Shown piece by piece: positions 2,471 to 55,160 of a DNA stretch of 64,000 nt; the stretch's first letter is position 1; each line of letters starts with the position of its first letter. A program made the translations under genes and the position numbers. The stretch is taken from NCBI GenBank assembly GCA_049516875.1, contig JBEKSS010000002.1, positions 64,001-128,000 on the forward strand, given 5' to 3'. The notes beneath the pieces were generated by a model. It was given only the letters and a program-made list of their open reading frames with translations, was not told the DNA's origin and ran no database searches. Source of the stretch: Candidatus Bathyarchaeia archaeon. GTDB lineage: Archaea; Thermoproteota; Bathyarchaeia; Bathyarchaeales; Bathycorpusculaceae.

Positions 2471-2518
2471 AGCCCTTGCTTTTGAGTACTCAATTCGTGT
2501 TTTTTTTGGGCTCAAAAC
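2471..2518 (+). repeat. ~50-bp oriented element, left copy
   Basis: agcccttgcttTTGAGTACTCAAttcgtgttttttttgggctcaaaac aligns with 58720-58768 and with the reverse complement of 55111-55159. Confidence 0.8.
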
Positions 2519-2679
2519 GGGTGGTTTGTTGAGGTTTTTGTTGTGCGTGTGTGTAGCGCGCGTGCGTTGTTTGGTGGCTTGGGCTTCTGGTTTTTGTAAT
2601 AAAGGTGTGTTTGATGTTCTGGAGTACATGAATCGGCGGTTCTGATGCGTCCCTGCGAAGTTCTGGTGGCAGGCGTGGG

Positions 2680-2883
2680 TCAGGTGTTGTATTCTTCGTT
2701 TTCTAGGAGTATGGTTGTGGTGATTGTTGTGTTTGTTTGTGGGGTAGGTTTGGGTTTTTGGGGTTTGGTTCTGGAGCCTGTCCAATAGAGGGTCCATCCG
2801 ATTAGCCAGAGGAGGGTTGTGACGGGAAGAAGTATCAGTATAACTGCTCTGTTGCGTACGCGTATGTTTCTAGGCAGTTTCAA
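2680..2883 (-). CDS. Small single-TM protein, paralog of 51870-52076
   Basis: RNRAVILILLPVTTLLWLIGWTLYWTG versus RNRTIRLLFLPIAILLWIIGWTMLWAG. Confidence 0.75.
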   Translation of the reverse strand: MKLPRNIRVRNRAVILILLPVTTLLWLIGWTLYWTGSRTKPQKPKPTPQTNTTITTTILLENEEYNT

Positions 2884-3303
2884 GATTATGCCTGAATGGA
2901 ACTTTGCGGGATGTGGAAATAAGTGTTTTTGACATGTAGGTGTATCTTTGCATGTTATGGTGGGTCTGGTTCGGTTTGGCAGGATGGAGTTTAGGTCGGA
3001 AGCAAAGCATTTGCAGCGTTTGGCGGGGGCTGGAATTGAAGCGTTTGTTGCAATTCTCTGGGTTGAAGTTTTCCGGTTGTTTCGTTATGATGCTTTTGGT
3101 GTTGCGTTTGGGTGTGAATGATATTTTTCGTCGTGGAAGATATGGGACATTGTTCTAGAACATTTGCATAGATGTTACATAGAATATCGTTTAAATAGTA
3201 GGTTTTCAATTTGAAGGGTTTAGGAGAAAGAGATCGCGGACGAATGTGTGAACATGGGTGAAAATGTGTTCGGTTCCGCTCCTGTCAGGGAGGGATTGGT
3301 TTA

Positions 3304-3696
3304 GTGGAGTCTAGGAGCCGGGTTGAGCGGGATGTGTTTCGGGGTAGGGTTAAGGAGGAGTGGGGGCTATTGTGGGCGGAGCGGTTTGATGACAGGGTTA
3401 GGGCTGAAGGGGTTTCTGTTCGGGATTATCCGTTAGTTTTTGCGAGTCGCGGACACGTTATTTTTGCGACCAGGAACGCGAAGGCTCTGAGTTTTTCGCA
3501 GATAATGGCGGTTCACGCGTCTCAGGGTCTGGTTTATTCTCCTGATCCTGACGTTGGGGGGTGGGGCAAGTTTGCCCGGACGTACGTGGGCAGGGTTGCT
3601 CACTTGAGGGCCAGAGCCTTCGTTAACGGGCAGTCCACGCGTGAGAAAGATGGGCAGCATCGGAAGAAGGGCGGCAGGGGCTGGCTTCACAAGTAA
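3304..3696 (+). CDS. Hypothetical protein
   Basis: 130-aa ORF preceded by GGAGG and collinear with downstream genes; no family recognised. Confidence 0.65.
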   Translation: MESRSRVERDVFRGRVKEEWGLLWAERFDDRVRAEGVSVRDYPLVFASRGHVIFATRNAKALSFSQIMAVHASQGLVYSPDPDVGGWGKFARTYVGRVAHLRARAFVNGQSTREKDGQHRKKGGRGWLHK

Positions 3697-3774
3697 TGTT
3701 TCATAAGTAGCGCGTGTGTCTTGTCTTAGATAATCTGTTTTCCGCTGTTCTGTTTGTGTTTGGTTGTGTTTTCA

Positions 3775-4128
3775 ATGGGTAAGTACAGGGATGGGCTTAG
3801 GATCATAGCGGATATTCTGCATGCTGCCGGCAGCGGTTCGAAGAAGACTCGGATTATGGGTGTTGCAAACTTGAGTTACAGGCTTTTCGAGAAGTACTTG
3901 GGGAGGACGGTTCAGGTTGGTTTCTTGCGGTTGAACGATGAGGGCTACGAAGTCACAGAGAAAGGTCAGGATTTTCTCGAAAAATACCATGATTTATCTG
4001 GTAGATACTCGAAGTTGGACACCGAGCTTCAGAGCGTCCTGTATGAGAAGGAGATTTTGAAGAGGATGAGTCAGCCTTTGAGGAATGGCAAGCTTAAGGC
4101 GGTGTGTGGGAGGAAACGTCGAAGGTGA
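3775..4128 (+). CDS. Archaeal winged-helix DNA-binding protein (HTH_45-like)
   Basis: MGKYRDGLRIIADIL...KKTRIMGVANLSY...YEVTEKG pattern; ATG at 3775 is the likely start. Confidence 0.82.
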   Translation: MGKYRDGLRIIADILHAAGSGSKKTRIMGVANLSYRLFEKYLGRTVQVGFLRLNDEGYEVTEKGQDFLEKYHDLSGRYSKLDTELQSVLYEKEILKRMSQPLRNGKLKAVCGRKRRR

Positions 4129-4646
4129 AGGGTCTGCTCAGGCAGCGGGCTAAGAGTCTTGCTTGGCTGTTGTTGGTTCTGATTGTTGCGGGCTTGCTCT
4201 CGTACGGGTCGCCGTGTGCCAAGGGAGCTGACGATGCTTCGGGGAGTGTTGGAAACGCGGATGCTGCGGTTCGTCAGGCTTTTAACGCTGCTTTGGATGC
4301 TGAGAGGGCTGGGGCGAACGTTTCCGGTTTGATTGTGAGGCTGAATGAAGCTGGGGCTGTTTTGGTGGAGGCTGAAGTTGCGCTTGGAGACGGGAATTCA
4401 AGCGAGGCTGCTAGCAAGGCTGGCCAGTGTGTTGGAATTGCTGAAAGTGTCAGAAGCGAGGCTGATGCTTTGAAGACGTCGGCCTTGGATGGGGCACAGA
4501 CGGTTTTTTGGATGTATCTCACTTTTTCGGTGGTCGGCATTGCTGTGTTTGTTGCTGTTTTGGCGCTCGTTTGGCGACGGTTCAAGCGCGACCATGTTGA
4601 GAAGACGTTGAGTATGAAGCCTGAGGTGGCGCATAATGAAGCTTGA
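4104..4646 (+). CDS. Membrane-anchored helical protein (signal peptide plus C-terminal TM)
   Basis: Hydrophobic N- and C-terminal segments around an Ala-rich helical core; likely start is GTG 4125, overlapping the upstream stop. Confidence 0.7.
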   Translation: MWEETSKVKGLLRQRAKSLAWLLLVLIVAGLLSYGSPCAKGADDASGSVGNADAAVRQAFNAALDAERAGANVSGLIVRLNEAGAVLVEAEVALGDGNSSEAASKAGQCVGIAESVRSEADALKTSALDGAQTVFWMYLTFSVVGIAVFVAVLALVWRRFKRDHVEKTLSMKPEVAHNEA

Positions 4647-5232
4647 GGACTACAAGCAAGTTTTTGCCGCTGTGGGCTTGGTTGGCGTTTTGCTTTTCGC
4701 TACTCCAGCTTTGGGTTTAGTAGTGCATCTTCCAAGTGGAGAGAAGTTTTCGGAGCTTTATGTTTTAGGCTCAGGGCATATGGCTGAAGACTATCCGTTT
4801 AACGTTAGAGAGAATGAGAGTTACCTGGTTTATCTGGGGGTTGACAATCATTTGAGCAGTTCGGCTTATTATGAAGTCATCGTGAAGTTTGCGAATCAAT
4901 CTGAGTCTTTGCCTGATACAACGGCCGGCGTGCCCAGTTCGTTGCCGGGGCTGTACGAGTACCGTGTGTTTCTACAGGATGGACAGAGTTGGGAGCAGCC
5001 GTTGACTTTTTCGTTTTCCCAGGTGTCAGCTGCGCAAAATCGGTCGGTGGTTGGTGGTTTGCGGGTGAATGGTGTCACGCTTAGCGTGGAGAAGCCTGAG
5101 GTGTGGGACGACGGGAACGGTGGGTATTTTTATGAGGTGTTTATGGAGTTGTGGATTTACAACGTTGCCTCTGATGCATTTCAGTTTCACAACCGTTTCG
5201 TGGGCCTATGGTTGAACGTGACGGCCTCTTAA
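4636..5232 (+). CDS. DUF1616-like protein (C-terminal, extracellular part)
   Basis: TM segment followed by EKFSELYVLG...MAEDYP...VYLGVDNH...LWLNVT. Confidence 0.72.
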   Translation: MKLEDYKQVFAAVGLVGVLLFATPALGLVVHLPSGEKFSELYVLGSGHMAEDYPFNVRENESYLVYLGVDNHLSSSAYYEVIVKFANQSESLPDTTAGVPSSLPGLYEYRVFLQDGQSWEQPLTFSFSQVSAAQNRSVVGGLRVNGVTLSVEKPEVWDDGNGGYFYEVFMELWIYNVASDAFQFHNRFVGLWLNVTAS

Positions 5233-5352
5233 GTCAAGTTTTTAAGGGCGACTGTAAGATACTTATAGAACTTTCTTCCTCTATCACTTAAATGTATGGA
5301 GGACGAAGGTAAATCATACCGTCGCAGATTAGCGGCTTTGGTGGTGCTCTGA

Positions 5353-6045
5353 ATGATGGGAGAAGGCTATCGGAACAGTGTGCTAGCTATTATTGCCGCT
5401 CTCAACGAGGAGGAGGGAGTTGGGCTGACGATAGCGGAGCTCCGGCAGTATTTGGAGAAGCCCTGGGTTCTCGTAGTAGACGGCAAGAGCAGTGACAGAA
5501 CGGTTGAGATTGCGAAGAATCTTGATGTGGACGTGATTTTTCAGGAGGGCAAGGGCAAGGGCGACGCGATAGCATGCGCGATCAGACAGGCTAATGCTGA
5601 TGTTGATTATGTTGCTTTCACGGATGCAGACTACACATACCCAGCTGAGTATGTTCCAAGAATGATTAGGATTTTGGAAGAGAATCCAAAGCTGGGAATG
5701 GTTTGCGGAAACAGGTTCAACTCACATTTTGACTTGAAAGAAATGCACAACATGTTCTATTTTGGAAACAGACTTTTGGCATTCACCCATAACATGCTGA
5801 ACGGCGTGGCCATGCGCGACCCGCTTACCGGCCTGAGAGTGGTGCGATGGAAAATACTGAAGAACTGGACGCCGAAGTCTAAGGGTTTCGACGTTGAGGT
5901 TGAGTTGAACCATCATGTTGAGAGACAAGGTTACGGCATAGTGGAGATTCCGATACCGTATAGGCCTAGGCTTGGAGAAAAAAAACTCAAGCTACAGCAT
6001 GGTGCCACGATTCTGAAAAGAATCTTGCTTGAGACTCTCTACTAG
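5353..6045 (+). CDS. GT2, polyprenol-phosphate glycosyltransferase-like
   Basis: ALNEE, VVDGKSSDRT, GKGDA, DADYTY, DPLTG and FDVEVE motifs. Confidence 0.88.
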   Translation: MMGEGYRNSVLAIIAALNEEEGVGLTIAELRQYLEKPWVLVVDGKSSDRTVEIAKNLDVDVIFQEGKGKGDAIACAIRQANADVDYVAFTDADYTYPAEYVPRMIRILEENPKLGMVCGNRFNSHFDLKEMHNMFYFGNRLLAFTHNMLNGVAMRDPLTGLRVVRWKILKNWTPKSKGFDVEVELNHHVERQGYGIVEIPIPYRPRLGEKKLKLQHGATILKRILLETLY

Positions 6046-7072
6046 TTCGCCTCACAGTTCTGCAACGGCCGCTAATGGAGCTGAAAAAGGGGAAATGGGG
6101 AATTCTTCTCACAAGGTTCTTGTGACAGGTGGGGCTGGCTTCATAGGCAGCCATCTTGTGGATAGGCTGCTCGCTGAAGGGTTTGAAGTTACGGTTCTGG
6201 ATGATTTCTCGAGTGGCAAAATGCAGAATATTTCTCATCACAAGAACGCGAAAGAGTTGCATGTTGTTCACGGCGACGTTAGAGATACAGGATTAGTCAA
6301 GAACGTTGTTGAAGATGTTGATTCGATTTTTCATGAGGCTGCATTGGTGGATGTGGCGTTGTCGGTTGAGGAGCCGTTTTTGTTCAACGACGTTAATGTT
6401 GTTGGTACTCTTAATCTTCTGAGGGTCTGTGCAGATTCGGGCATTAAGCGTTTTGTTTTCGCATCTTCGGCTGCTGTGTATGGCATTTCTGGGCCTGCGA
6501 AGAAAAGGGAGGGTATGCTTCCAAGGCCGATTTCGCCATATGGAGTCACAAAATTGGCATCTGAGAATTATGTTCGAGTCTTCAGCGAACTGTGTGGTTT
6601 GGAGACTGTATGCTTAAGATACTTTAATGTTTATGGTCCCAGACAGGGTGTTGGCTCTAGCTATAGTGGCGTGATAACCGCCTTTTTAAGTCGCTTGCTG
6701 AACAGTCAAGCACCTGTTATTCATGGGGACGGGAGGCAGACTAGAGACTTCGTGAATGTGGATGACGTTGTAGCTGCAAATATGCTTGCATTAAAGAGTA
6801 AGAATGCTGTTGGCGAGGTTTTTAACATTGCGAGCGGCAGGGCAACTACCATTAGTGATTTGGCAAAAGTTATGCAAAGAATCACAGAAAAGGAATGCTT
6901 GAAACCTGTTTATGCTGAGCCACGGCCAGGCGATATTAAACATTGTTGGGCAGACATCACTAAGGCTGAACGCCTTCTCGGTTTCCATCCGAAAGTCAAG
7001 ATTGATGGCGGCTTATTGAAGCTAGTCCGTGGGCATCGCGATGCAAAGTATTCTATGCGGTTATCTGATTGA
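6029..7072 (+). CDS. NAD-dependent sugar epimerase/dehydratase
   Basis: VLVTGGAGFIGSHL, SSAAVYG, YGVTK, RYFNVYGP; true start probably ATG 6095. Confidence 0.92.
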   Translation: MRLSTSSPHSSATAANGAEKGEMGNSSHKVLVTGGAGFIGSHLVDRLLAEGFEVTVLDDFSSGKMQNISHHKNAKELHVVHGDVRDTGLVKNVVEDVDSIFHEAALVDVALSVEEPFLFNDVNVVGTLNLLRVCADSGIKRFVFASSAAVYGISGPAKKREGMLPRPISPYGVTKLASENYVRVFSELCGLETVCLRYFNVYGPRQGVGSSYSGVITAFLSRLLNSQAPVIHGDGRQTRDFVNVDDVVAANMLALKSKNAVGEVFNIASGRATTISDLAKVMQRITEKECLKPVYAEPRPGDIKHCWADITKAERLLGFHPKVKIDGGLLKLVRGHRDAKYSMRLSD

Positions 7073-7185
7073 TACCTGCGGGAAACTGCTTTTCAGCCTT
7101 GAAGGCAGGAATTGTAGTTTTTGTTCTGTAATTCTTAACCACAGTGCGCGTGCGTTGGCAACAGATTGATTGGAGGCGCGAATGA

Positions 7186-8193
7186 TTGGATGACGAAGGC
7201 TTGAAGGTTGCCGTTGTTGGATTGGGCAAGATGGGGCTGCTTCATGCCGGTATTCTGAACACTTTGGAAGGTGTCAAACTTGCTGCGGTGTGTGACAAGA
7301 GTGGTTTGATTCGGAGATTTCTTAGGAAGCTACTTGGCGAAGTTAAAATTGTAGGTGATTTGGAGAAGCTATCTGACTTGGGCCTTGACGTAGTTTATGT
7401 GACCACGCCTATACCTTCTCATTTCCCTGTTACGAGGAGCATTTATTCAAGGCGAATAGCACGGAATGTGTTTGTGGAAAAGACGCTTGCGTCAAGTTAT
7501 GACGAAGCTAAGGGCATGTGTCGCTTGGCTCAAGACTCTGGAGGTGTTAACATGGTTGGTTACATGAAAAGATTTGCGGTTACCTTTAGGAAGGCTAAGG
7601 AGTTGCTGGATCATGGGGATCTAGGAGATGTAACTTCTTTTGATGCATATGGTTACTCATCGGATTTTCTGGGTGTTGAAAGAGATTCAGGGACCTCTGG
7701 ATCTCGAGGAGGGGTTCTTGCAGATCTAGGCTCTCATGTGATCGATTTGGCTCTCTGGTTTTTCGGCGACCTAGAGGTTGATACAGCGAGGCTAGAACCA
7801 ACAAAGAAAGCAGGTCTTGAGGATTCTGTATCCTTCACGGTGAGGAATTCCAAGGATCTAAAGGGTAGCTTTGACATATCGTGGTGCAAGGAGGGTTATC
7901 GCATGCCTGAGTCTGGGATACTTGTGATAGGTTCGGAGGGGATCATTAAAATGGATGATGATAAAGTAGAGTTGATACCTGCTCATGGCAAGCCAATCAG
8001 ATGGCATAAGCATGATCTTGATGACAGTGTGGGTTTCCTGCTAGGAGGGTCGGAATATTTCCGTGAAGATGAATATTTCATTAAATCGGTTTCAAATGGC
8101 AAAATGGCGGAGCCCAGTTTCAGCACGGCTTCAAGAGTTGATTGCATTATCACTCAGGTGAAAACCAAAGCTGACCAGGACGGACAAAGATGA
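7186..8193 (+). CDS. Gfo/Idh/MocA oxidoreductase
   Basis: VVGLGKMG, VEKT and DLGSHVID motifs. Confidence 0.88.
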   Translation: MDDEGLKVAVVGLGKMGLLHAGILNTLEGVKLAAVCDKSGLIRRFLRKLLGEVKIVGDLEKLSDLGLDVVYVTTPIPSHFPVTRSIYSRRIARNVFVEKTLASSYDEAKGMCRLAQDSGGVNMVGYMKRFAVTFRKAKELLDHGDLGDVTSFDAYGYSSDFLGVERDSGTSGSRGGVLADLGSHVIDLALWFFGDLEVDTARLEPTKKAGLEDSVSFTVRNSKDLKGSFDISWCKEGYRMPESGILVIGSEGIIKMDDDKVELIPAHGKPIRWHKHDLDDSVGFLLGGSEYFREDEYFIKSVSNGKMAEPSFSTASRVDCIITQVKTKADQDGQR

Positions 8194-9089
8194 TATTCCT
8201 CGTTGGCGACAACCCGTTTCATGGCATCAGTCATCTTTCACAAGAGCGTGTCAGAGTCAGAGGTGACGCCGCTACTTCTCCAGACTATGCTGCTGGACTA
8301 GTTATGACTTCAGTGGAGAATGGAGCGAACGGCTTCATGTTCTCAGTCAGTGATACAACGCTTTCAATACTGAGAATAATCCGTCAACGAGGAAATGAGC
8401 CTCTGAGCCTTTATGCTCTTGTTCCCTACGCGTATGAATACGTTAGGCTGGCTACTCAGGTTGGAGGAATTTCTGGTCTCGCCAAGAAGCTTGCTGGGCA
8501 GCTAGTGCTTTCCGCGAACTTGAAAGCAGTCGCAATGGGTTTGAAAGGAGTCATAGGGGCAGATTCTGTGGCTCTTTTGAAAGCCTACGTGTCTTATGAA
8601 GTTTCTAGAATAAGGTCGGCAGCAGGCAAATCTGGAAAACTGGAATCAGTGTTGCTGCATGAAATAATAACCGACTTGGCATTAGGTCTCAATCTGAATC
8701 ATCTTTTTGAATCGTACGTGGATTTCATGCTGAAGCTCGGCATAAAACCGGGCTTTGAAACCAGAAACTTTTCTTATTTTGTGAGCAGATTGAAAGAATT
8801 GGGTATTGATTTGCACGATGTTATGATTGCTACACCTTTCAACAAAGTCGGGTTTCAAATGAATCCTTCTAGAAGTGAATGCGAGAAAGTGCTAGCACAA
8901 GTTCCAGAATCCGATGTAATAGCTATGAGCATATTAGCAGCTGGGTACCTCAATCTTCCTGAAGCAATAGAGTATATAGAAGGTTTACCGAACCTAAAGG
9001 GAATTGTTGTAGGTGTGTCAAAGGAACGGCATGCATGTGAAACATTCCGACTCCTCCAGAAGGAATCAGACAATCGCGTTAGGCCGTAG
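8190..9089 (+). CDS. Conserved hypothetical (probable TIM-barrel) protein
   Basis: GDNPFHGISH, TPFNKVGFQMNP, AMSILAAG; translationally coupled to the upstream gene. Confidence 0.65.
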   Translation: MIFLVGDNPFHGISHLSQERVRVRGDAATSPDYAAGLVMTSVENGANGFMFSVSDTTLSILRIIRQRGNEPLSLYALVPYAYEYVRLATQVGGISGLAKKLAGQLVLSANLKAVAMGLKGVIGADSVALLKAYVSYEVSRIRSAAGKSGKLESVLLHEIITDLALGLNLNHLFESYVDFMLKLGIKPGFETRNFSYFVSRLKELGIDLHDVMIATPFNKVGFQMNPSRSECEKVLAQVPESDVIAMSILAAGYLNLPEAIEYIEGLPNLKGIVVGVSKERHACETFRLLQKESDNRVRP

Positions 9090-9101
9090 AAGAAGCGCGT
9101 T

Positions 9102-10316: not shown

Positions 10317-10507
10317 GAACTGCGCGCCCTAATAGAAGCAATTTCTGCCACAAAGGCTTACGATCGCGCGCGCTCAGAATCATGAAACAAATGGCCTCAA
10401 CGAAAGTAAGGCGAGCTACTGCGCGCGCTAGGATAGCCTCAAAGGTGGCAGTATATATGTGATTATATCATCTTGGGTCATTCCGTCAATCGATTAGTGT
10501 TCTTAGG

Positions 10508-11698: not shown

Positions 11699-11751
11699 AG
11701 AAGTTAATACTGTGTTTATGGAAGATGATGTAACCTAGGCGGAGACAAAAA

Positions 11752-14223: not shown

Positions 14224-14260
14224 TCTCGATTTCTTATGGATTGGGAGAAGGTTAGGCTAT

Positions 14261-45430: not shown

Positions 45431-45449
45431 TCATTTCCCTCTCTTTGTT

Positions 45450-46727: not shown

Positions 46728-46958
46728 TCATTTTCCTCAAGGTGTCAATCGATTAATTCCTTGAGATTGATCGACGTTACTGAAGCTAAATAGTTTTTGC
46801 CACATTGCTTAATCGCTCGAATTCAGACACCAAATCAGCGCGCACTGCTTCCAGCGCGCGCGCAAATCAGACTAGAGGAATTCTATAGAAGGGTCATCCA
46901 GTCTGATTTATAAAGACGATACCGCAAAGATCCTTATACAAAGTAGCAGGGTGGAACT

Positions 46959-48788: not shown

Positions 48789-48850
48789 AATCCTACCTTG
48801 GAATCTTATTCCGAGAAAATTCTGAACGTGCGCGCTAAACGAGCGCGCGC

Positions 48851-48955
48851 CCTGAAAAACCCAGGCAACCTAGCCCTCGCCCTGAAAGCCTTAACCATGA
48901 CAGTCGCAATGATAGCACTATACTTTCAAGACCTGAGAATAATCTTCACCGACGC
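48851..48955 (+). pseudogene. Possible N-terminal fragment of an exosortase/archaeosortase-like membrane protein
   Basis: LALKALTMTVAMIALYFQDLRIIFTDA resembles, from recall, such N-termini; ends at CGCGCGC 48953. Confidence 0.4.
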
Positions 48956-49065
48956 GCGCCACGTTTGGAAAACCAGGATGACCGGCAAAAGTCGAGAACA
49001 CAAGCGTCTGAGCGTGTGGAAGCAGATAATAACCCGTAGCTCAAAGTAGAAAAGAGGAGTCCAAA

Positions 49066-49890
49066 GTGCGCGTAGGAATAAACCTAGTAAGCTCAGCAAG
49101 TGTGACAATGCTTCTGCTGGGCACGATATCCCTAGTAGCTTCAATAGGCTATAATTCATCCATACTTGCTTTCATAGGCCTAGGCCTAGTCTTCTGGGGA
49201 GCAGTTCTCCTCTACATCAAACCCGAACGATACGCGAAAAAAACCCTCTTGGAAGCCGCATTGTCACCTTCTCTCACAACATTAAACCAGATGATCCTGG
49301 AACTCGGCTACAAAGGAGACGCCACATACCTCCCCCCAAAATACTTCACAGATCCAGAGACCACCCGGATGTGCGTGTCAAAATACAAGTATACAAGCCT
49401 TCCAACGCCAGAACAAATCCAACCATACGAGGACCAACCCTTAGCCCAAACCGCGCAAGGCCTGCTGCTCACACCGCCCGGGTTTGAGCTGTCAAAACTG
49501 CTGGAAAAGTCACTCGGAAAGAGCTTCATCAAAACAGACCTCGAAAGCCTCCAGCAGAGCCTCCCAAAAATCTTCATCGAAGACTTGGAAATCGCCGAAA
49601 ACCTGGAACTGCAAGCAGACACTTTCAACAAAAAAGAAGGCGTAACTGCATATGTCACTCAGGTGAGGAACACCACGGTCCACGCAACAATAACCAAACC
49701 GATCATTAGAAACAAACTCGAAGAGGCTGAACAAACCTCGCAGATAACCAGCTCAATCTTCTTCCCGCTCTGCAGCGCCATCGCCATAGCCATAACCAAG
49801 GCAACAGGCAAACCAGTAAGAATAACAGACACTATGAGCTCCGAGGACGGCAATGTTATAGAGGCCAGCTTCGAAATCGTGGAGGAATAG
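49066..49890 (+). CDS. Conserved archaeal membrane protein
   Basis: Two N-terminal TMs, YLPPK, TPPG, PLCSAIA. Confidence 0.75.
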   Translation: MRVGINLVSSASVTMLLLGTISLVASIGYNSSILAFIGLGLVFWGAVLLYIKPERYAKKTLLEAALSPSLTTLNQMILELGYKGDATYLPPKYFTDPETTRMCVSKYKYTSLPTPEQIQPYEDQPLAQTAQGLLLTPPGFELSKLLEKSLGKSFIKTDLESLQQSLPKIFIEDLEIAENLELQADTFNKKEGVTAYVTQVRNTTVHATITKPIIRNKLEEAEQTSQITSSIFFPLCSAIAIAITKATGKPVRITDTMSSEDGNVIEASFEIVEE

Positions 49891-49894
49891 CGCA

Positions 49895-50107
49895 ATGGAT
49901 TTTCCCATGTCATTCTGGGACATGAGCCTGTGGCTAGCCATCACAGCCATAATCCTACTCGTAACATCAGAACTCATCTCATCGTACTACGGAAAAACAA
50001 ACCCCCCCATCAACGAAAACAGACTACGAAATGTAGCACTAGCCGTCTCAACACTCTTCCTCGCAACAGTGGCTGTAAGAATAGTCACCATCATAATCAG
50101 CCCGTAA
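49895..50107 (+). CDS. Small two-TM protein
   Basis: SLWLAITAIILLVTSELIS...RLRNVAL; collinear with neighbours. Confidence 0.7.
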   Translation: MDFPMSFWDMSLWLAITAIILLVTSELISSYYGKTNPPINENRLRNVALAVSTLFLATVAVRIVTIIISP

Positions 50108-50329
50108 CGCGGAAAGAAACACGAAGACCAACGCGCTTGCAACCCACATTCTATACAGCGACAAACATGAAGGCACGTCTGGATTCCATGCAGACACAGA
50201 ATTCTGCGGCCGCACGTGCCTCCGGTGGAAACGCTGTTTCTTACAACAACGAAACAACGTTAACATAGAAGCATAAACCCTAAAACCTACAATAAACCTA
50301 ACAAGCCAACAGCCAAGGAGCCAACACAT

Positions 50330-50989
50330 TTGCCCAAAAAACCCGCCGAAGACGAACTGGACCAACAGATAATCCGCACCGTTGAAACGGAAAAACCAGA
50401 AACCATCCAACATCTAATCGACCAAGTACAGGCACTGTCATCAAAACCCAAACAGGAAATATTGGACCGAATACTGCAACTACAGCAAACAGAAAGAATC
50501 CACCTCAAACCAGCCCAAACAGCAACCCCGGAAAAGCTCACCAGCTACCTGCGCTCAAACCAAGCCCTCTGGTACTGGATCACCATGGCACTCACGATAG
50601 CCACAGCCATAGTCGTGTTCACTGTCCCCGAAGACGCCTTCCCACTAGTGTACCTAAGATACGTCCTAGGCACAGCGTTCGTCCTGTGGCTGCCAGGCTA
50701 CGCCTTCACAAAAGCCCTCTTCCCACAAAACCTTCCATTCGCCAAAGCCCTAGCACGCTCATCCGACACGTCTGAAAAAGAGTTGGACGCCATTGAACGC
50801 ATAGCCCTGAGCGTGGGCATGAGCATTGCACTCGTCCCCATCGTCGGCTTGCTCCTAAACTACACACCGTGGGGCATTCGTTTAACACCCATAGTCCTAA
50901 GCCTGCTCGCGTTGACCACAATCTTCGCCACAGCCGGAATCATAAGGGAACATCAAACCAGAGCCCCCCAAAAACGCAAGCCCAAATAG
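50330..50989 (+). CDS. DUF1616-like protein (N-terminal membrane part)
   Basis: RYVLG..FVLWLPGY..ALFP, ERIALSVGMSIA, LLNYTPWGI. Confidence 0.8.
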   Translation: MPKKPAEDELDQQIIRTVETEKPETIQHLIDQVQALSSKPKQEILDRILQLQQTERIHLKPAQTATPEKLTSYLRSNQALWYWITMALTIATAIVVFTVPEDAFPLVYLRYVLGTAFVLWLPGYAFTKALFPQNLPFAKALARSSDTSEKELDAIERIALSVGMSIALVPIVGLLLNYTPWGIRLTPIVLSLLALTTIFATAGIIREHQTRAPQKRKPK

Positions 50990-51169
50990 GCGCGCGCTAC
51001 TGAAACCAAAACAGTCAAGGTCGAGCAAACTCCGTCAAAACTCGACAACACGAAACCATCGACAAGAAATAAAAAAAGGACAGATGCCATCCCTTTTGAC
51101 AGCATAATCCCAAAACAGTCAGGGTCGACTGGTTTCCGATCGCACGGGTATCGCTGGTGCCCTGTAGAA

Positions 51170-51628
51170 CTATTGTGTTGCTGTGATGGTTATGTCGAAG
51201 CTGAAGGTTGTGATGCCGGTGATGCTTGATGAAACCGTAAGGCTCAGCACGGCCTGGACAGATGCGCCCACTGCAAGCACGTAACCAGCCCTGTTCCAAG
51301 TCAGCGTGAAGTAGCTTGAAGCCGAACTTGGGTTCCAGTTGCCCGCACTTATGCTTAACGTGACTGGCACGTTGCCCTCGTTCTTCAGGTAAATCGTCGC
51401 CGTTGACGTCCCGCCGGCATTCAATGTTCCCCAACTGACGCTCGATAGCGCGGATGTACATCCGCTGTCTGAGTACACGCCCAGCTGCACCGATGGCGGC
51501 GTGACGACTGCGATGTTGCCCGTGTTCGAGACTGTGCGAGTCGCAACTAATGAGCCCACCGCGCTAGTGACTAGGGCCATAACCGCTAATACTAGGACCG
51601 TTCCCATGGTTGCTTTTTGCATAGCCAT
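51170..51628 (-). CDS. Small secreted Ser/Thr-rich beta-sandwich protein
   Basis: Signal peptide, VSNTGNI, SWGTL, YLKNEGN, FSFDITI. Confidence 0.75.
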   Translation of the reverse strand: MAMQKATMGTVLVLAVMALVTSAVGSLVATRTVSNTGNIAVVTPPSVQLGVYSDSGCTSALSSVSWGTLNAGGTSTATIYLKNEGNVPVTLSISAGNWNPSSASSYFTLTWNRAGYVLAVGASVQAVLSLTVSSSITGITTFSFDITITATQ

Positions 51629-51869
51629 AATCTTTCACTAAGACAAACAGGGTAATCTGAAGTCTTAATAAACATTATTGTCCACACAAACAACACAAAT
51701 ACACATCACAAAACATACACACAACCAAAAACATGCAAAAACAACCCCAAAAACCACAATAATGTACAACACACCACAAAACACATCCCAACTACTTATC
51801 CCAACTTCATAAAAGCTTTAACTAAGCATAACACGAGTCAACCGTCCGACCTCCAAAAAAAGGCCGTAC

Positions 51870-52076
51870 GTGGTCAACTCTATGCGCAACAGAACAATCA
51901 GGCTACTGTTCCTGCCAATCGCAATACTCCTCTGGATAATCGGATGGACCATGCTCTGGGCAGGCACCCGCAAAGAGCAAAAAACTCAACAAACCCAAGC
52001 CGAAACCGCCGCAGAAAACGAGTCCATAACCATAATACCTATGATATCTGAAGAACAAGAACAATGCGAAGCCTAA
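51870..52076 (+). CDS. Small single-TM protein, paralog of 2680-2883
   Basis: LLWIIGWTMLWAG motif and acidic tail. Confidence 0.75.
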   Translation: MVNSMRNRTIRLLFLPIAILLWIIGWTMLWAGTRKEQKTQQTQAETAAENESITIIPMISEEQEQCEA

Positions 52077-52174
52077 CCGGCGCGCGTTCGATCGATCACA
52101 CAAACAGCTAAATCACAAAAACCGTTAAATATGTTCTAACCCTCTTGAGCAAAGCCTGAAAGGATGGAAAGACC

Positions 52175-53803
52175 ATGGAAAAAGCGCTGGAGATGGGCAA
52201 GACCTCAGCCACTGGAAGCTTCCAGCTGCTCATAGGCGTAGCCTCATCCACCATAATAATGGCCGTCGGAACAATAATCCTGACGAGGCTCTTGGGGAAC
52301 GGCAATTACGGCTTGTACGTTTTGGCTATGGCTCCCAGCGTCACGATAAACCTTTTTCGAGACTGGGGAGTCAACAGCGCCATGACCAAGTACGTGGCCA
52401 GGCTTCGAGCCGAAAACAAGGAACTGGAAACCTGCGACGTGGTCGCCGCCGGGATGGCCTTCGAAGTTGCTACCGGCGTGGCCCTGTCCTTCCTGTCCTT
52501 CGTTCTGGCAGGATTCTTCGCATCAATCCTCAAGAGACCCGAGATTTACCCGTTCATATCAATCATGTCCCTCACGATACTCTCAGGTTCACTGCTAGCG
52601 GCCGCGCAATCCTGCTTCATCGGCTACGAAAGAATGAACCTAAACAGCTTCACAGTAATCTGTCAAGCCATCGTCAAAACCGCTGTTGGCCCCGTCTTGG
52701 TTCTCCTCGGATACGGAATCCTCGGCGCCACGCTCGGCTTAACTCTGTCCTTCGTCGCGGCAGGAGTAATCGGAGTCGCCACACTCTACCTCATCCTTTA
52801 CAGGCCCCTCAGCAAACGCAGAAAAGCCAAGCGCAGCATTGTCGAAACCCTGAAACCAATGCTAAGATACGGCGTACCGCTCAACATATCCGGCATCCTG
52901 CTAGGCCTGCTAGGCCAGCTCTACACTCTGTTGATGGGCATCTACATCCCCAACACAGCCGCAGGAAACGGATTGATAGGCAACTACGGCGTTGCGGTTA
53001 ACTTCACCGTGCTTCTAACGTTCTTCACCCTCCCAATCGGAACCGTCCTGTTTCCCGCTTTTGCGAAGCTCGACTCGCAGAACGAGCATGAACTACTCAA
53101 GACAGTCTTCGCATCCTCCGTCAAATACACCGCGATACTCCTCATACCCGCAACGATGGCCGTGATGGCCCTTTCAACCCCGATAGTCAACACGCTGTTC
53201 GGCGAAGCATACGCCTACGCACCCTTCTTCCTAACCCTGATAGTCATCACCACCCTGTTCGCAGCCGTGGGCAGCCTCACCCTGAGCAGCTTCCTGACAG
53301 GCCTCGGCGAAACAAAAGTGCTGATGAAACAAGCCGTCCTCACGCTGCTCATCGGCCTGCCCCTAGCATTCCTGCTCATCCCGCCGTTCGGAATACTGGG
53401 GAACATAATCGGAAGCTCTATAGCGGGAATTCCAAGCATGATATGGGGCCTCTACTGGGTGTGGAAACACTACCAAGCCAAAGCCGAACTCCGCTCATCC
53501 GCAAAAATCTCCACAGCCTCAGCCCTCGCCGCCATCGCATCCTTCCTGACCACTACACTTCTGCACACAGCCGCATGGATACAGCTCATCATCGGCCTCG
53601 CCGTCTTCCTAATCATCTACGTACTCGGAGCCCCCCTCATCGGCGCAATATACCAATCCGACATCGACGCCCTACGACACATGTTCTCAAGCCTGGGCAT
53701 CGTCTCAAAAATAATCAACATCCCACTAAAAGCAGCAGAGAAAGCCGCACAGACCAGAGCACGCCACAGGACGCCGGAAGAACCAGAACAACGCGAAGCC
53801 TAG
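52175..53803 (+). CDS. Oligosaccharide flippase (Wzx/MOP family)
   Basis: About 14 TMs, RLLG..NYG, VLFPAFAKL. Confidence 0.88.
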   Translation: MEKALEMGKTSATGSFQLLIGVASSTIIMAVGTIILTRLLGNGNYGLYVLAMAPSVTINLFRDWGVNSAMTKYVARLRAENKELETCDVVAAGMAFEVATGVALSFLSFVLAGFFASILKRPEIYPFISIMSLTILSGSLLAAAQSCFIGYERMNLNSFTVICQAIVKTAVGPVLVLLGYGILGATLGLTLSFVAAGVIGVATLYLILYRPLSKRRKAKRSIVETLKPMLRYGVPLNISGILLGLLGQLYTLLMGIYIPNTAAGNGLIGNYGVAVNFTVLLTFFTLPIGTVLFPAFAKLDSQNEHELLKTVFASSVKYTAILLIPATMAVMALSTPIVNTLFGEAYAYAPFFLTLIVITTLFAAVGSLTLSSFLTGLGETKVLMKQAVLTLLIGLPLAFLLIPPFGILGNIIGSSIAGIPSMIWGLYWVWKHYQAKAELRSSAKISTASALAAIASFLTTTLLHTAAWIQLIIGLAVFLIIYVLGAPLIGAIYQSDIDALRHMFSSLGIVSKIINIPLKAAEKAAQTRARHRTPEEPEQREA

Positions 53804-53857
53804 CTCATAGCCTTAGCGAACCAGTCCATCCTATCGTCAGCCTTTCAGCCCGAACAT

Positions 53858-55117
53858 TTGAAAAAGGGCGGCCGCCGACAGCCAAGGGACAGTATGAAAC
53901 GTTTTTCCCGATTCTTCCAACAACCCGCCTTCCACAACTATGACTGCAGAGACGCTTTAAACGACCCAACCAGATCAGCGGAACACGCCTCCTGGACAAA
54001 TCCTAAATACTATCCTCACTCACAAACCTTCTCAGAACACCACCGTATCAGCCAGAATGCGAGATGCAACAAAGTGATTGAACGCATAATACTTGTCACG
54101 GGTGGAGCCGGCTTCATAGGCAGCCATTTGACCCAAGAGCTGCTAAACCAGGGACACAAAGTAACCATACTCGACAACTTCTCAAACGGAAAAATGAAGA
54201 ACATTCAACACTCGCTGGGCAACCCTTCCCTAGCCATAGTCAAAGAAGACCTAAAAAGACCGAAGAAACTGAGGCAAATCATAAACGCCTCGGACACAAT
54301 CTTCCATCTGGCCGCAAACCCCGAGGTAAAATTGGGCGAAACCGACCCTAAAACGCATTTTGAAGAAAACATCCTCGCAACCTTCAACCTGCTCGAGACC
54401 ATGAGAAAAAGTGGAAAACCAAAAACCCTCGTCTTCACCTCAACATCCACCGTGTACGGAGAAGCCACACAGGTTCCAACAAGAGAAGACTACGCTCCGC
54501 TCATACCCATCTCAACCTACGGCGCCTCAAAACTCGCCTGCGAAGCCCTCATCACAAGCTACGCCCACACGTTCAACCATCGAGCCCTCATCCTGCGCCT
54601 CGCCAACATCATCGGCCCAAGATCAAACCACGGAATCATAGTCGACTTCATCAAAAAAATCAAGGCCAACCCCACAGAACTCACGATACTCGGCGACGGA
54701 AACCAAAAAAAATCCTACATGTACATAACAGACTGCACAAGCGCAATCATCCACCTGACCGAAACCTTCTCCAAAAGCACCCAAAAAACCGACATCTTCA
54801 ACCTGGGCTCCAACGACAAGATAACCGTCACACAAATCGCAAAAACCCTCGCACAACTGATGAACACACCCAACATAGAATACAAGTTCACCGGCGGAGT
54901 CGACGGCGGAAGAGGATGGAAAGGCGACGTCAAAACCATGCAACTATCCATAGACAAACTAGCCAAAACCGGATGGAAACCAAACTACACAAGCAAACAA
55001 GCCGTAAAACTGGCCGCAAAAGCCCTAATCCAAGAAAACACCACACCTCAACAAACCCACGCAAACAGGCCAAACACCAAGAAACAACCAAACCCACAAC
55101 CCCGCACAGCGTTTTGA
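53858..55117 (+). CDS. UDP-glucose 4-epimerase-like
   Basis: VTGGAGFIG, HLAANPEV, YGASK, GRGWKGDV; true start near 54074; stop codon lies inside the repeat element. Confidence 0.9.
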   Translation: MKKGGRRQPRDSMKRFSRFFQQPAFHNYDCRDALNDPTRSAEHASWTNPKYYPHSQTFSEHHRISQNARCNKVIERIILVTGGAGFIGSHLTQELLNQGHKVTILDNFSNGKMKNIQHSLGNPSLAIVKEDLKRPKKLRQIINASDTIFHLAANPEVKLGETDPKTHFEENILATFNLLETMRKSGKPKTLVFTSTSTVYGEATQVPTREDYAPLIPISTYGASKLACEALITSYAHTFNHRALILRLANIIGPRSNHGIIVDFIKKIKANPTELTILGDGNQKKSYMYITDCTSAIIHLTETFSKSTQKTDIFNLGSNDKITVTQIAKTLAQLMNTPNIEYKFTGGVDGGRGWKGDVKTMQLSIDKLAKTGWKPNYTSKQAVKLAAKALIQENTTPQQTHANRPNTKKQPNPQPRTAF

Positions 55118-55160
55118 CACTCAGAAGAATCACGGATTGAGCACTCAAACACAAGGGCTC
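55111..55160 (-). repeat. ~50-bp oriented element, right (inverted) copy
   Basis: Reverse complement is 47/50 identical to 58719-58768. Confidence 0.92.

What the first reader, a model, noticed from the sequence alone, without database searches (positions are those of the whole stretch)
2471..55160. Inverted ~50-bp elements bracket ~52.7 kb of the glycan locus
Seen: AGCCCTTG..tTTGAGT(A/G)CTCAAT.CGTG.TTT.TTTG.G..TCAAAAC at 2471-2518 (+) and 55111-55160 (-), facing inward. Each has a 12-bp (near-)palindrome, and a related TTGAGTGTCAA site ~24 bp downstream (degenerate in the left copy). The zone rich in GATC/GC tracts matches the bracketed interval, with the outermost GCGCGC at 2429 and 55178 just outside the elements. 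No transposase or recombinase is encoded in the window. Inference: oriented binding or loading sites for a trans-acting protein (transfer or replication origin-like, or recombination sites) that define a variable, exchangeable locus. Caveat: rmlABC lie just outside the left copy.
Basis: partly seen in the sequence, partly recalled or inferred. Interest (0 to 1): 0.85.

Follow-up and report, generated by a model that had tools for sequence, protein, structure and literature searches.

The report
Dispersed archaeal repeat that flips segments
The two short elements are real, but they are 2 of about 74 copies of a repeat scattered between genes across this Bathyarchaeia genome; inverted copies flank short gene blocks that have repeatedly flipped, so the repeat marks genome rearrangement rather than the edges of the sugar-coat locus.

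Summary
In detail: near-identical ~65-75-bp elements lie at 2455-2520 (+) and 55105-55175 (-). The bracket is not special. Two more copies lie at 58703-58919, and a profile finds 74 copies genome-wide; 70 of 74 are intergenic. The element is not folded, not coding and matches no Rfam family. It is confined to this genus: 74 copies here, 18, 12, 3 and 1 in four congeners, and none credible in 60 other genera.

Congeners have empty sites at 55.1 kb and 58.7 kb, so copies have inserted. Neighbouring opposite-strand copies always form '<- ->' pairs 1.6-7.8 kb apart (17 of 17).

Five of 12 '<- ->' segments are inverted in at least one congener. Three are inverted in 90-97%-identical metagenome contigs, with the crossover inside the elements. 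Element orientation also tracks strong local G+T strand bias; cause and effect are unresolved.

Best reading: a lineage-restricted mobile repeat, loosely REPIN- or MITE-like, that serves as an inversion crossover site for an unidentified protein. It does not delimit the glycan island, although its left edge abuts the left copy. The scan's earlier notes on this genome did not cover this repeat.

The parts
2455..2520 (+). Left element copy (single unit; second TTGAG..TCAA site degenerate)
   Evidence: nhmmer 48.5 bits; sequence. It lies 20 nt right of the point where homology with G002 ends.
2521..2680 (+). G+T-rich tail downstream of the left copy
   Evidence: Sequence. Family-wide, tails are 0.70 G+T in the first 120 nt.
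55105..55175 (-). Right element copy (single unit)
   Evidence: nhmmer 66.7 bits; sequence. Absent from the orthologous spacer of G004, which is 39 bp long.
55027..55104 (-). G+T-rich tail of the right copy (C+A-rich on +); it supplies the last ~30 codons of the epimerase ORF 53858-55117
   Evidence: In the alignment with G004, G002 and G003 their epimerases stop about 80 nt earlier.
55176..58702 (.). Segment between a '<- ->' pair (YdjM-like, HtrA-like, PurA and CxxCxxCC genes); same orientation here as in congeners
   Evidence: Pfam. Collinear HSPs in G002, G003 and G004. One of the 17 divergent pairs.
58703..58779 (+). Element unit A of a three-unit tandem array
   Evidence: nhmmer 76.9 bits. 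The whole array 58679-58916 is missing at a clean empty site in G002, G003 and G004.
58780..58851 (+). Partial middle unit B (CATGTTGG..ACTCAATTC..TTTTTGAGTGTCAAAAG)
   Evidence: Read from the sequence and from the register of other arrays. Start-to-start spacing of about 148 nt between the outer units recurs in 13 arrays (139-157 nt).
58852..58919 (+). Element unit C (terminal unit)
   Evidence: nhmmer 60.5 bits.
58920..59035 (+). G+T-rich stretch downstream of the array; it aligns to congeners with one-sided changes
   Evidence: Of 48 sites where three congeners agree, G000 has 8 C>T, 3 A>G, 0 G>A and 0 T>C.

Best explanation
The two elements belong to a genus-restricted family of short intergenic repeats. 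The unit is about 65-75 bp, with consensus ..CATGTTGG-N8-GAGNCCTTGTGTTTGAGTACTCAATCCGTGATTTCTTTGAGTGTCAAAAC... One to three units stand in tandem, followed by a variable G+T-rich tail.

Shown:
- The family has 74 copies, almost all intergenic.
- Copies have been inserted at new sites since the split from congeners.
- Other copies sit at orthologous sites in related species. They stay close to one master sequence in this genome and in an ~85%-identical relative, but are decayed in two other congeners.
- Neighbouring opposite-strand copies form '<- ->' pairs 1.6-7.8 kb apart.
- The enclosed segments have inverted repeatedly, with crossovers inside the elements.
- Element orientation agrees with the locally G+T-rich strand.

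Inferred:
- The invariant core with its dyad (TTGAG-TA-CTCAA plus a second TTGAG-N-CTCAA) is the binding site of a trans-acting recombinase or transposase encoded elsewhere.
- '<- ->' pairs arise either by local copy-and-paste with inversion, as in intramolecular replicative transposition, or by oriented insertion followed by recombination.
- The glycan locus merely lies between two such pairs. The element may have taken part in the rearrangement at the island's left edge only.
For: Family size and placement:
- 74 nhmmer hits and 74 covariance-model hits.
- 70 of 74 overlap no predicted gene, although 78% of the genome lies in predicted genes.

Not RNA and not coding:
- Consensus fold -0.62 kcal/mol with 0 compensatory pairs.
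- DNA fold z = -0.91.
- No Rfam match.

Restriction to the genus:
- 18, 12, 3 and 1 matches in the four congeners.
- One weak match in 60 other genera of the family.
- The exact 22-mer occurs in only 2 other species representatives of 185,579, and in 0 viral contigs.

Insertion:
- Clean empty sites in G002, G003 and G004 at 58679-58916, and in G004 at 55.03-55.21 kb.
- About 1 kb extra around the copy at C1:250.3k.
- Sites occupied only in the ~85% relative.

Persistence and decay:
- Copies of the ~85% relative project onto G000 copies at 13 pairings. Identity over full length is 76% in the element against 55% and 50% in the 150-nt flanks.
- G004 and G002 copies score 12-52 bits against 55-82 here, and are orthologous to each other.

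Pair geometry:
- 17 adjacent divergent pairs, all 1.6-7.8 kb apart.
- 9 adjacent convergent pairs, all 16.7-134.8 kb apart.

Inversions:
- 5 of 12 segments are inverted against congeners.
- The orientation pattern conflicts with relatedness at two loci.
- The opposite orientation is seen in 90-97%-identical contigs at three loci, with HSPs overlapping inside the elements.
- At the EF-1alpha locus G004 has one decayed copy, while G000 has two inverted copies and the flipped segment. That is the product expected of replicative intramolecular transposition (mechanism as described for IS6/IS26 in PMC7986276, passages read).

Other points:
- The inverted arrays share only 21-51 nt of exact identity. 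This argues against assembly artefact and makes plain homologous recombination a poor fit.
- Neighbours are unrelated housekeeping genes, so the family is not a regulon.
Against: - No transposase partner was found. There is no Y1/HUH transposase and no serine recombinase. No multi-copy protein family looks like a transposase; the two largest families are TBP and Alba paralogues.
- The single TnpB-like gene shares no more 11-mers with the elements than control windows do: 45 against a median of 38.
- About 8-10 tyrosine-recombinase hits exist, but none lies next to an element pair that I examined.
- No terminal inverted repeats are present, and no target-site duplication could be read at the three junction sets examined.
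- Retention of near-master sequence at old orthologous sites could equally mean host-level purifying selection, which would favour a host function over a selfish element.
- All genomes are metagenome assemblies (G000 has 5.4% contamination), so some orientation differences could be assembly choices.
- No within-sample read evidence for both orientations was obtained; contigs simply break at the elements.
- My gene calls come from a crude home-made caller.
Confidence: 0.65

Rival explanations
1. Host architectural or regulatory element. The repeat is a selected cis-site, for example a one-way transcription terminator or insulator, or the binding site of a chromatin or domain-organising protein. 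It would be spread and kept by selection. Inversions would be a side effect of recombination between repeats.
For: - The core is nearly invariant across 68 aligned copies.
- It is kept at orthologous sites in an ~85%-identical relative while the flanks diverge.
- The forward strand carries 1.9 runs of T5 or longer per element plus tail, against 0.2 A-runs. From general knowledge, oligo-T runs are the archaeal intrinsic termination signal.
- 37 of 72 copies follow a co-oriented gene, often within 5-300 nt.
- The genome has five TBP and five Alba paralogues, which hints at an unusual chromatin and transcription toolkit.
Against: - 35 of 72 copies have a divergent gene upstream, so they cannot terminate it.
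- Copies decayed in G004 and G002 while the neighbouring housekeeping genes stayed.
- New insertions occur at non-homologous sites.
- No RNA data are available.
- The element contains no TATA-like box of the kind seen at native promoters nearby (read by eye).
Confidence: 0.18
2. Single-strand-linked element. The repeat marks, or itself creates, places where one DNA strand is exposed, such as R-loop or strand-displacement initiation zones. It would insert strand-specifically there, or drive one-sided C>T and A>G change around itself. The strand bias would then be the primary phenomenon.
For: - G+T fraction on the element strand peaks at the element: 0.63 just downstream, and above 0.53 from -1.5 to +1 kb.
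- The effect is independent of gene direction. Coding third-position G+T is 0.55-0.57 in co-oriented genes against 0.35-0.38 in anti-oriented genes within 2 kb (p about 1e-8).
- Among genes with extreme third-position bias that lie within 5 kb of an element, 32 of 33 low-G+T genes are anti-oriented and 25 of 27 high-G+T genes are co-oriented.
- Around the two G000-specific insertions in the window, the G000 branch changed toward the predicted strand bias. The counts toward G+T: toward C+A (transitions plus strand-informative transversions) are 14:38 left of the '-' copy (11:28 for transitions alone) and 202:86 and 47:13 around the '+' array. The G003 branch gives 40:14, 109:106 and 15:21 (one search agrees).
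- Some bacterial elements are known to target the lagging-strand template (PMC6006769; only the start of the abstract was seen).
Against: - At C1:241-253k the bias is shared by all four species. The G000 branch is neutral or even reversed next to intact copies: 68:19 the wrong way at 241.4-242.9k, and 40:43, 31:28 and 46:46 around the new '+' copy.
- 72 of 108 extreme-bias domains have no element.
- The reciprocal test at sites occupied only in the relative is weak: 1393 against 1183 over the 11 rows I kept. It is not polarised.
- The element has no hairpin of the kind used by known single-strand transposons, and there is no HUH enzyme.
- Transversions are biased as well (43:19), which simple deamination does not explain.
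Confidence: 0.12
3. Locus-specific boundary of the glycan island. The two inward-facing copies would be the ends at which the 52.7-kb locus is exchanged, transferred or replicated.
For: - The left copy starts 20 nt from the point where homology with G002 stops, and G002 lacks window ~2.45-50.5 kb.
- GATCGATC tracts are almost confined to the island.
Against: - The family has 74 copies genome-wide.
- The right edge of the G002 gap, at about 50.5 kb, has no copy; the right copy lies 4.6 kb further out.
- The right copy is a G000-lineage insertion in a spacer that is otherwise conserved.
- All nine '-> <-' intervals are long and hold ordinary genes.
- There is no relaxase, Orc1/Cdc6 or recombinase in the window. 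The only related hit is a sub-threshold TrbC/VirB2 match of 20.6 bits against a cut-off of 27.9.
Confidence: 0.03
4. Family of small structured RNA genes or small-protein genes.
For: - An ATG opens many units.
- G+T-rich tails give long open frames, for example 58662-59168, 168 aa.
Against: - No conserved fold and no covariation; the fold is no better than shuffles.
- No Rfam match even at E<=1.
- The long frame has no Pfam hit. T-run length differences shift the frame between copies.
- A-poor sequence is stop-poor by composition alone.
Confidence: 0.02

Closest known systems
REP/REPIN populations with their single-copy RAYT transposase (bacteria)
   Same: Both are short, extragenic, many copies per genome and restricted to a lineage. 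Both are inherited at orthologous sites and held near a master sequence in some lineages while decaying in sister lineages. The preprint describes exactly this decay when the RAYT is lost (10.1101/2021.07.10.451892, passages read).
   Different: REPINs are inverted doublets of a hairpin-forming palindrome. Here the units are direct tandem repeats with no stable fold. No Y1/RAYT gene is present. [quoted passage not shown] Membership is not claimed.
MITEs of prokaryotes (for example Correia/NEMIS and enterobacterial RU/ERIC-type small mobile sequences)
   Same: Both are small, non-coding, intergenic, amplified in one lineage and show insertion polymorphism between relatives. Both may carry T-runs or protein sites that affect neighbours. 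I saw only listings of the review PMC10969869 and of PMC2229807; the properties are recalled.
   Different: I found no terminal inverted repeats, no readable target duplication and no related autonomous IS. Each insertion carries a variable G+T-rich tail, which I do not know from MITEs.
Intramolecular replicative transposition of IS6/IS26-type elements
   Same: It produces an inverted segment bounded by two copies of the element in opposite orientation, without flanking direct repeats (PMC7986276, passages read). That is the structure of the EF-1alpha locus relative to G004 and of the 17 pairs.
   Different: IS26 is an 820-bp element that encodes its own DDE transposase. Here the element is 70-220 bp and no transposase is known. 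Only the 'heads-inward' geometry occurs (17 against 0), which the symmetric IS26 mechanism does not predict.
Integrase-driven chromosome inversions in Thermococcales (Int-pTN3)
   Same: It is an archaeal case in which inversions between short repeated sequences are too frequent for ordinary homologous recombination. A mobile-element tyrosine recombinase catalyses them on segments as short as 104 bp (PMC5495485, abstract read). G000 has about 8-10 tyrosine-recombinase hits.
   Different: Those inversions are large and use any repeated sequence, such as tRNA fragments. Here they are 1.6-7.8 kb and use one dedicated repeat with only 21-51 nt of exact identity. No pTN3-like integrase has been tied to the elements.
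Site-specific invertible segments (Hin/Gin/Cin, Fim-type switches)
   Same: Both have inverted sites with a dyad core that flank a segment found in both orientations.
   Different: Known switches are one or a few per genome, sit beside their recombinase and flip a promoter or gene end. Here there are 17 pairs around housekeeping genes, with no adjacent recombinase and no serine recombinase at all.

Membership tests
MITE | Short, non-coding, multi-copy, intergenic | tested here: met
   74 copies of 65-75 bp units; 70 of 74 are intergenic; no fold and no family hit.
MITE | Terminal inverted repeats | tested here: not met
   The alignment of 68 copies shows a 5' CATGTTGG end and a 3' ..TCAAAAC-NTTGTTG end with no complementarity beyond CATG. 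Folding is no better than shuffles.
MITE | Target-site duplication | tested here: inconclusive
   Filled against empty junctions at 55.1 kb, 58.7 kb and the EF-1alpha locus show no readable duplication, but the flanks are diverged.
MITE | Parent IS with the same ends in the genome or in relatives | tested here: not met
   No multi-copy transposase-like family was found. The metagenome loci were not searched for one.
REP/REPIN-RAYT | Hairpin-forming palindromic unit, usually as an inverted doublet | tested here: not met
   Only a 12-bp dyad with no loop is present; units are direct tandems; consensus fold is -0.62 kcal/mol.
REP/REPIN-RAYT | Single-copy Y1 (HUH) transposase in the genome | tested here: not met
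   PF01797 gives 0 matches in G000 (97.5% complete), while the control genomes respond.
REP/REPIN-RAYT | Vertical persistence with decay in lineages that lost the enzyme | tested here: inconclusive
   The pattern fits: near-master copies here and in the ~85% relative, decayed copies in G004 and G002. No enzyme is known whose loss could be checked.
IS200/IS605-derived elements (PATE) | Subterminal hairpins recognised by TnpA, and strand-specific insertion | tested here: not met
   No hairpins and no TnpA. Orientation does follow strand bias, which resembles strand-specific insertion but does not show it.
Site-specific inversion system | Inverted recombination sites bounding a segment found in both orientations | tested here: met
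   5 of 12 segments are inverted against congeners. Three are inverted in 90-97%-identical contigs with the crossover inside the elements.
Site-specific inversion system | Cognate recombinase that acts on the sites | not testable with these tools
   No serine recombinase. There are 8-10 tyrosine-recombinase hits elsewhere, none linked to the elements.
Archaeal replication origin (ORB elements) | Clustered around an AT-rich unwinding region beside orc1/cdc6 | not tested
No Orc1/Cdc6 domain appears among the window ORFs. Segments between pairs are ordinary genes.
Transfer origin (oriT) | Nearby relaxase or mating-pore genes | tested here: not met
   None is present in the window; there is only a sub-threshold TrbC/VirB2 hit.

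The most novel reading that the evidence does not exclude
This is a persistent, vertically inherited 'replicator population' of the REPIN kind, which a 2022 preprint says has not been detected in archaea. It would be run by a non-HUH enzyme that both copies the element to nearby upstream sites and flips the enclosed gene blocks. Its activity, or the single-stranded state it depends on, would leave a kilobase-scale one-sided (C>T, A>G) mutation footprint on neighbouring housekeeping genes.
Probability: 0.22. Interest if true: 0.78.

Novelty: new variant of a known kind. Interest (0 to 1): 0.6.

Why it matters
Bathyarchaeia are abundant and uncultured, and almost nothing is known about how their genomes rearrange. 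In my four literature searches no listed paper described a dispersed repeat family in this group. In one search none of the 15 listed papers even contained the word Bathyarchaeia. This is weak evidence that nothing is in print.

A repeat that (i) inserts, (ii) persists at orthologous sites, (iii) bounds recurrently flipping blocks of core genes such as EF-1alpha, and (iv) is aligned with strong local strand bias offers three things:
- a concrete handle for finding a new archaeal recombination enzyme;
- a way of dating rearrangements in metagenome-assembled genomes;
- a test of whether mobile DNA can shape mutation spectra of neighbouring genes.

It also warns annotators. The repeat breaks assemblies, extends ORFs with A-poor tails (the epimerase) and creates long false ORFs (58662-59168).

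Tried and rejected
- Structured RNA: no Rfam hit at gathering score over the window or at E<=1 over 58600-59100. There is no consensus fold and no tRNA or tmRNA in the window.
- IS200/IS605 link: no TnpA. A single TnpB-like gene is present in G000, G004 and G002 but not in G001 or G003. Its 5-kb neighbourhood shares 45 11-mers with the elements against a control median of 38, so there is no link.
- Multi-copy genes as candidate transposases: the largest near-identical families are TBP and Alba paralogues.
- Shared gene family near the elements: one family of 8 beta-helix/CARDB surface proteins appeared. It looks like ordinary paralogy and was not pursued.
- Regulon idea: the 100 neighbouring proteins scanned have unrelated housekeeping functions.
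- Expression: no RNA holder was listed, so nothing can be said about transcription.
- Population polymorphism from four metagenome runs: contigs end at the elements, depth rises about 25-fold there, and no empty-site joint was seen. This is uninformative, because contigs cannot show rare forms.
- GCGCG as target motif: it occurs within 80 nt upstream of 17 of 53 first units against 8.9% background. It often follows stop codons, so I treat it as a by-product of lying near gene ends.
- Covariation between the variable base of GAGNCC and the variable base of the second site: checked by eye on alignment A1, none seen.
- Viral source: 0 matches in viral contigs.
- Skew as a pure codon-usage effect: rejected, because both extremes occur and follow element orientation, not gene orientation.
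- Skew caused solely by the element: not sustained, because the C1:241-253k locus contradicts it.

Full report
**What is at the coordinates.** The left element reads AGCCCTTGCTTTTGAGTACTCAATTCGTGTTTTTTTTGGGCTCAAAAC on the + strand from 2471. The right element reads AGCCCTTGTGTTTGAGTGCTCAATCCGTGATTCTTCTGAGTGTCAAAAC on the - strand from 55160. The 12-bp palindrome with up to one mismatch occurs at four places in the window: 2482, 55137, 58731 and 58879. That is 8 strand-matches against 0.93 expected, and none of 100 shuffles reaches 8. The repeat finder groups 2456-2516, 58705-58765 and 58853-58913 as one direct family. It pairs 55079-55172 with 58707-58800 as inverted arms. The window therefore holds four full copies, not two. 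The intergenic stretch 58651-59035 carries a three-unit tandem array.

**It is a genome-wide family.** The window is G000:C2:64001-128000 in a 2.43-Mb, 20-contig assembly. Earlier notes of this scan call the organism a Bathyarchaeia archaeon. The only two other species representatives that hold the exact 22-mer are titled Bathyarchaeia/Bathyarchaeota MAGs.

- A profile built from 49 exact-core copies finds 74 matches at E<=1e-3.
- A sequence-only covariance model built from 68 aligned copies again finds 74.
- With a crude codon-usage gene caller of my own, 70 of 74 copies overlap no predicted gene. Yet 78% of the genome lies inside predicted genes.
- The aligned core CCTTGTGTTTGAGTRCTCAATYCGTGATTTYTTTGAG..TCAAA is nearly invariant.
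- Units start with CATGTTGG and occur singly or as tandems. Among adjacent same-strand hits, 21 have start-to-start spacings of 76-157 nt.

**What it is not.**
- Rfam gives nothing at gathering score, nor at E<=1 on the array.
- RNAalifold gives -0.62 kcal/mol, four pairs and no compensatory change.
- The 226-nt array folded as DNA has z = -0.91, and 42 of 200 shuffles fold as well.
- The 100 proteins encoded within 700 nt of a copy are unrelated housekeeping functions. They include EF-1alpha, PCNA, RPA, both replicative polymerases, aCPSF1, HisRS, SAHH, SHMT, SOD and adenylate kinase. This is not a regulon.
- No window ORF hits a transposase or recombinase family.

**Distribution.** The strict 18-mer with up to 1 mismatch gives 62 matches in G000. 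It gives 1 and 2 in two congeners and 0 in the other 38 relatives. The covariance model gives 18 (G004), 12 (G002), 3 (G001, 77% complete) and 1 (G003) at E<=0.05. It gives a single weak match (E = 3e-4) in 60 genomes of other genera of the family. The 22-mer is absent from viral contigs. Of the 80 stretches with DNA:
- 15 are >=98% identical to G000;
- 29 are 95-98% identical;
- 33 are below 95%;
- 3 are unmatched.

The group at 83-89% identity is what I call the ~85% relative.

**Copies insert.** Synteny around 54-60 kb is conserved in G002, G003 and G004. At 58.7 kb all three read ..CTAATTTGGCTTTT|CCGTAACAA.., while G000 has about 240 extra bases, the whole array, at that point. At 55.1 kb G004 has a 39-bp spacer where G000 has about 190 bp. 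G002 and G003 have a different small gene there.

The inserted DNA includes a variable G+T-rich tail beyond the conserved unit. On the + strand this tail supplies the C+A-rich last ~30 codons of the epimerase ORF. About 1 kb is extra around the + copy at C1:250.3k. The ~85% relative has copies where G000 has none, for example at the equivalents of C1:473.4k and C8:90.4k.

**Copies also persist, and elsewhere decay.** G004 has a decayed copy upstream of EF-1alpha exactly where G000 has a near-consensus copy (16 bits). It has another downstream of RPA (inside the region mapped). It also has a decayed pair around the C6 segment. The G004 and G002 copies are heterogeneous and pairwise orthologous.

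In the ~85% relative, 13 copy pairings project within about 0-100 nt of G000 copies in the same orientation. Over full length these are 76% identical to them, against 55% and 50% for the 150-nt flanks. A master sequence kept in two lineages and lost in a third is the behaviour described for REPIN populations with and without their RAYT (10.1101/2021.07.10.451892, passages read). That preprint also says REPINs have not been found in archaea. I do not claim membership, because the units are not hairpins and no Y1 transposase is present.

**Pair geometry.** I sorted hits along each contig. Adjacent opposite-strand neighbours are of two kinds:
- 17 are '- then +', all 1,603-7,843 bp apart;
- 9 are '+ then -', all 16,695-134,750 bp apart.

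If the order were random, 17 of 17 short pairs of one kind has probability 2^-17 (my arithmetic). The glycan locus simply lies between the pair at C2:56.4-58.8k and the pair at window 55.2-58.7k.

**Inversions.** I compared 12 of the 17 enclosed segments with the congeners by the strands of BLAST pieces.

Five are inverted relative to a flank on the same contig in at least one congener:
- C9:47.8-49.4k, carrying EF-1alpha, in G004 and G002;
- C6:86.9-90.0k, in G004, G002 and G003;
- C3:172.0-174.0k, in G002 and G003 but not G004;
- C1:377.1-380.5k, in all four;
- C1:56.1-59.8k, in G001 and G003 but not G002.

Seven are not inverted:
- the window segment;
- C1:244-250k;
- C2:56.4-58.8k, where the left flank is collinear and the right flank ambiguous;
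- C2:240-246k;
- C14:40-45k;
- C3:213-218k;
- C7:197-202k.

Five segments were not examined. At two loci the orientation pattern cuts across relatedness, which implies repeated flips: G002 and G004 are each other's closest relatives yet differ at the C3 locus.

Independent assemblies agree. Among 11 metagenome loci laid against G000:
- contigs 90-97% identical carry the opposite orientation at the EF-1alpha segment (L126), at C1:55.96-62.8k (L140 with L141) and at C1:377-380.5k (L129 with L130), and in each case the two alignment pieces overlap by about 60-75 nt inside the element;
- five loci are collinear (L135, L122, L182, L183, L141);
- two loci of the ~85% relative are rearranged at elements (L160, L163).

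The inverted arrays share only 21-51 nt of perfect identity. Assembler confusion is therefore unlikely, and ordinary homologous recombination would be working at its lower limit.

**The EF-1alpha locus in detail.** G004 reads rc(R)-spacer-EF1a-[one decayed copy]-B. G000 reads rc(B)-[copy, reversed]-spacer-EF1a-[copy]-R. That is the product of intramolecular replicative transposition, or of insertion of a second inverted copy followed by recombination. The review of IS6/IS26 describes the former outcome, including the absence of flanking direct repeats (PMC7986276, passages read). A tyrosine recombinase that inverts archaeal chromosomes between repeats as short as 104 bp is known from Thermococcales (PMC5495485, abstract read). 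G000 has no serine recombinase and about 8-10 tyrosine-recombinase hits. None has been tied to the elements.

**Strand bias: the association is strong.**
- On the element's strand the G+T fraction is 0.63 in the 500 nt downstream. It stays above 0.53 from -1.5 kb to +1 kb (64 of 68 strong copies used).
- The first 120 nt after terminal units are 0.70 G+T (53 units).
- The effect is not codon usage. Genes within 2 kb that are co-oriented with the nearest copy have third-position G+T of 0.55-0.57; anti-oriented genes have 0.35-0.38. This holds on both sides of the copy (Mann-Whitney p = 2e-8 and 1e-7). The genome mean is 0.46.
- Of 65 genes below 0.30, 33 lie within 5 kb of a copy, and 32 of those are anti-oriented. 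Of 60 genes above 0.62, 27 lie within 5 kb, and 25 are co-oriented. The background share within 5 kb is 17%.
- 55 of 74 copies lie within 1 kb of a concordant extreme-bias domain. Such domains cover 9.5% of the genome, but 72 of the 108 domains have no copy.

**Strand bias: cause is unresolved.**

For a footprint that follows insertion:
- Around the two G000-specific insertions, substitutions polarised on a three-branch tree changed on the G000 branch toward C+A on + left of the '-' copy, 38 against 14.
- They changed toward G+T on + around the '+' array, 202:86 at 55.9-58.65 kb and 47:13 at 58.9-59.4 kb. These totals count transitions plus A>T, C>G and their reverses.
- The G003 branch gives 14:40, 109:106 and 15:21 (one search repeats this gene by gene, with decay out to 61.3 kb).
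- Within the family, changes from consensus are 1.7-1.8 times more often C>T and A>G than G>A and T>C per site. These events are not independent.

Against:
- At C1:241-253k the bias is shared by all four species.
- There the G000 branch runs the wrong way just downstream of an intact copy (68:19). It is flat around a newly inserted one (40:43, 32:32, 31:28, 46:46).
- At sites occupied only in the relative, the occupied genome is only slightly richer in G+T on the element strand: 1393 against 1183. This sums the 11 syntenic rows I kept. I dropped L169, L119, L184, the duplicate L175 and the non-syntenic rows. The test is unpolarised.

I therefore treat oriented insertion or retention as the safer reading, and a mutational footprint as open.

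**The glycan island.** In G002, rmlABC (window 1-2434, 85% identical) is followed after 1.7 kb by the DUF1616 gene that matches window 50532 onward. The spacer holds a beta-helix protein gene. Window ~2.45-50.5 kb is therefore absent. Homology stops at the GCGCGC at 2429-2434, 20 nt before the left copy. No relic of the element is found in the G002 spacer even at E<=100. The left copy thus abuts a rearrangement breakpoint, as copies do elsewhere. The right breakpoint has none.

**Limits.**
- All genomes are metagenome assemblies.
- Gene calls are my own and crude.
- Only 12 of 17 segments and a handful of junctions were examined.
- No RNA data and no read-level data on orientation were available.
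- The partner protein is unknown.
- Supplements of the cited papers were not opened.

Noticed in passing
window 14070-52090: (GATC)n tracts are almost private to the glycan island. All 28 GATCGATC occurrences in the window lie here, out of 46 in the whole 2.43-Mb genome. Most sit between glycosyltransferase, methyltransferase and related genes, and nine of them lie in the 1.5-kb gap 42.5-43.8 kb. They may mark cassette junctions.
   Followed up: partly
window ~2450-50500: The whole glycan gene island is missing from congener G002. There rmlABC lies 1.7 kb from the DUF1616 gene, with one beta-helix protein gene between them.
   Followed up: partly
G000 genome-wide, e.g. C11:3251-10750, C14:33251-35250, C10:8251-11500, C14:3501-5250: There are 108 domains of extreme strand bias (G+T fraction >0.59 or <0.41 in 1-kb windows, 231.5 kb in all). 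72 of them have no element, and several coincide with tyrosine-recombinase genes, so they may be integrated elements.
   Followed up: no
G000 C14:41151-41723, C1:367309-367878 and three more; C7:200101-200397, C1:368131-368418 and three more: There are five TBP paralogues and five Alba paralogues at 70% identity or more. They are the two largest near-identical protein families in the genome.
   Followed up: no
G000 C2:51423-53143 (L031:4423-6143), just downstream of the copy at C2:53.4k: A 1.7-kb stretch is 96% identical to G004:C17:19844-21563, while neighbouring blocks are 80-87% identical. This suggests recent exchange between the two lineages.
   Followed up: no
window 2680-2883 (-) and 51870-52076 (+): A pair of paralogous 67-68-aa hydrophobic ORFs lies in inverted orientation near the two ends of the island. 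This accounts for the inverted repeat I3 of 84 nt at 71%.
   Followed up: partly
window 53858-55117 and 58662-59168: A-poor tails of the repeat alter ORFs. The epimerase gains about 30 C-terminal codons absent from congeners. A 168-aa ORF with no Pfam hit runs through the array and its tail and is probably spurious.
   Followed up: partly
G000 C2:56360-56420 (upstream of the copy C2_56359-): Read by eye, the 3' end of a tRNA gene with an encoded CCA lies directly beside an element copy. I did not run ARAGORN there.
   Followed up: no
window 4636-5232 and 50330-50989: Two partial DUF1616 ORFs match the C-terminal and N-terminal halves of the family. They lie at opposite ends of the island and have opposite third-position bias, 0.73 against 0.22.
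   Followed up: no
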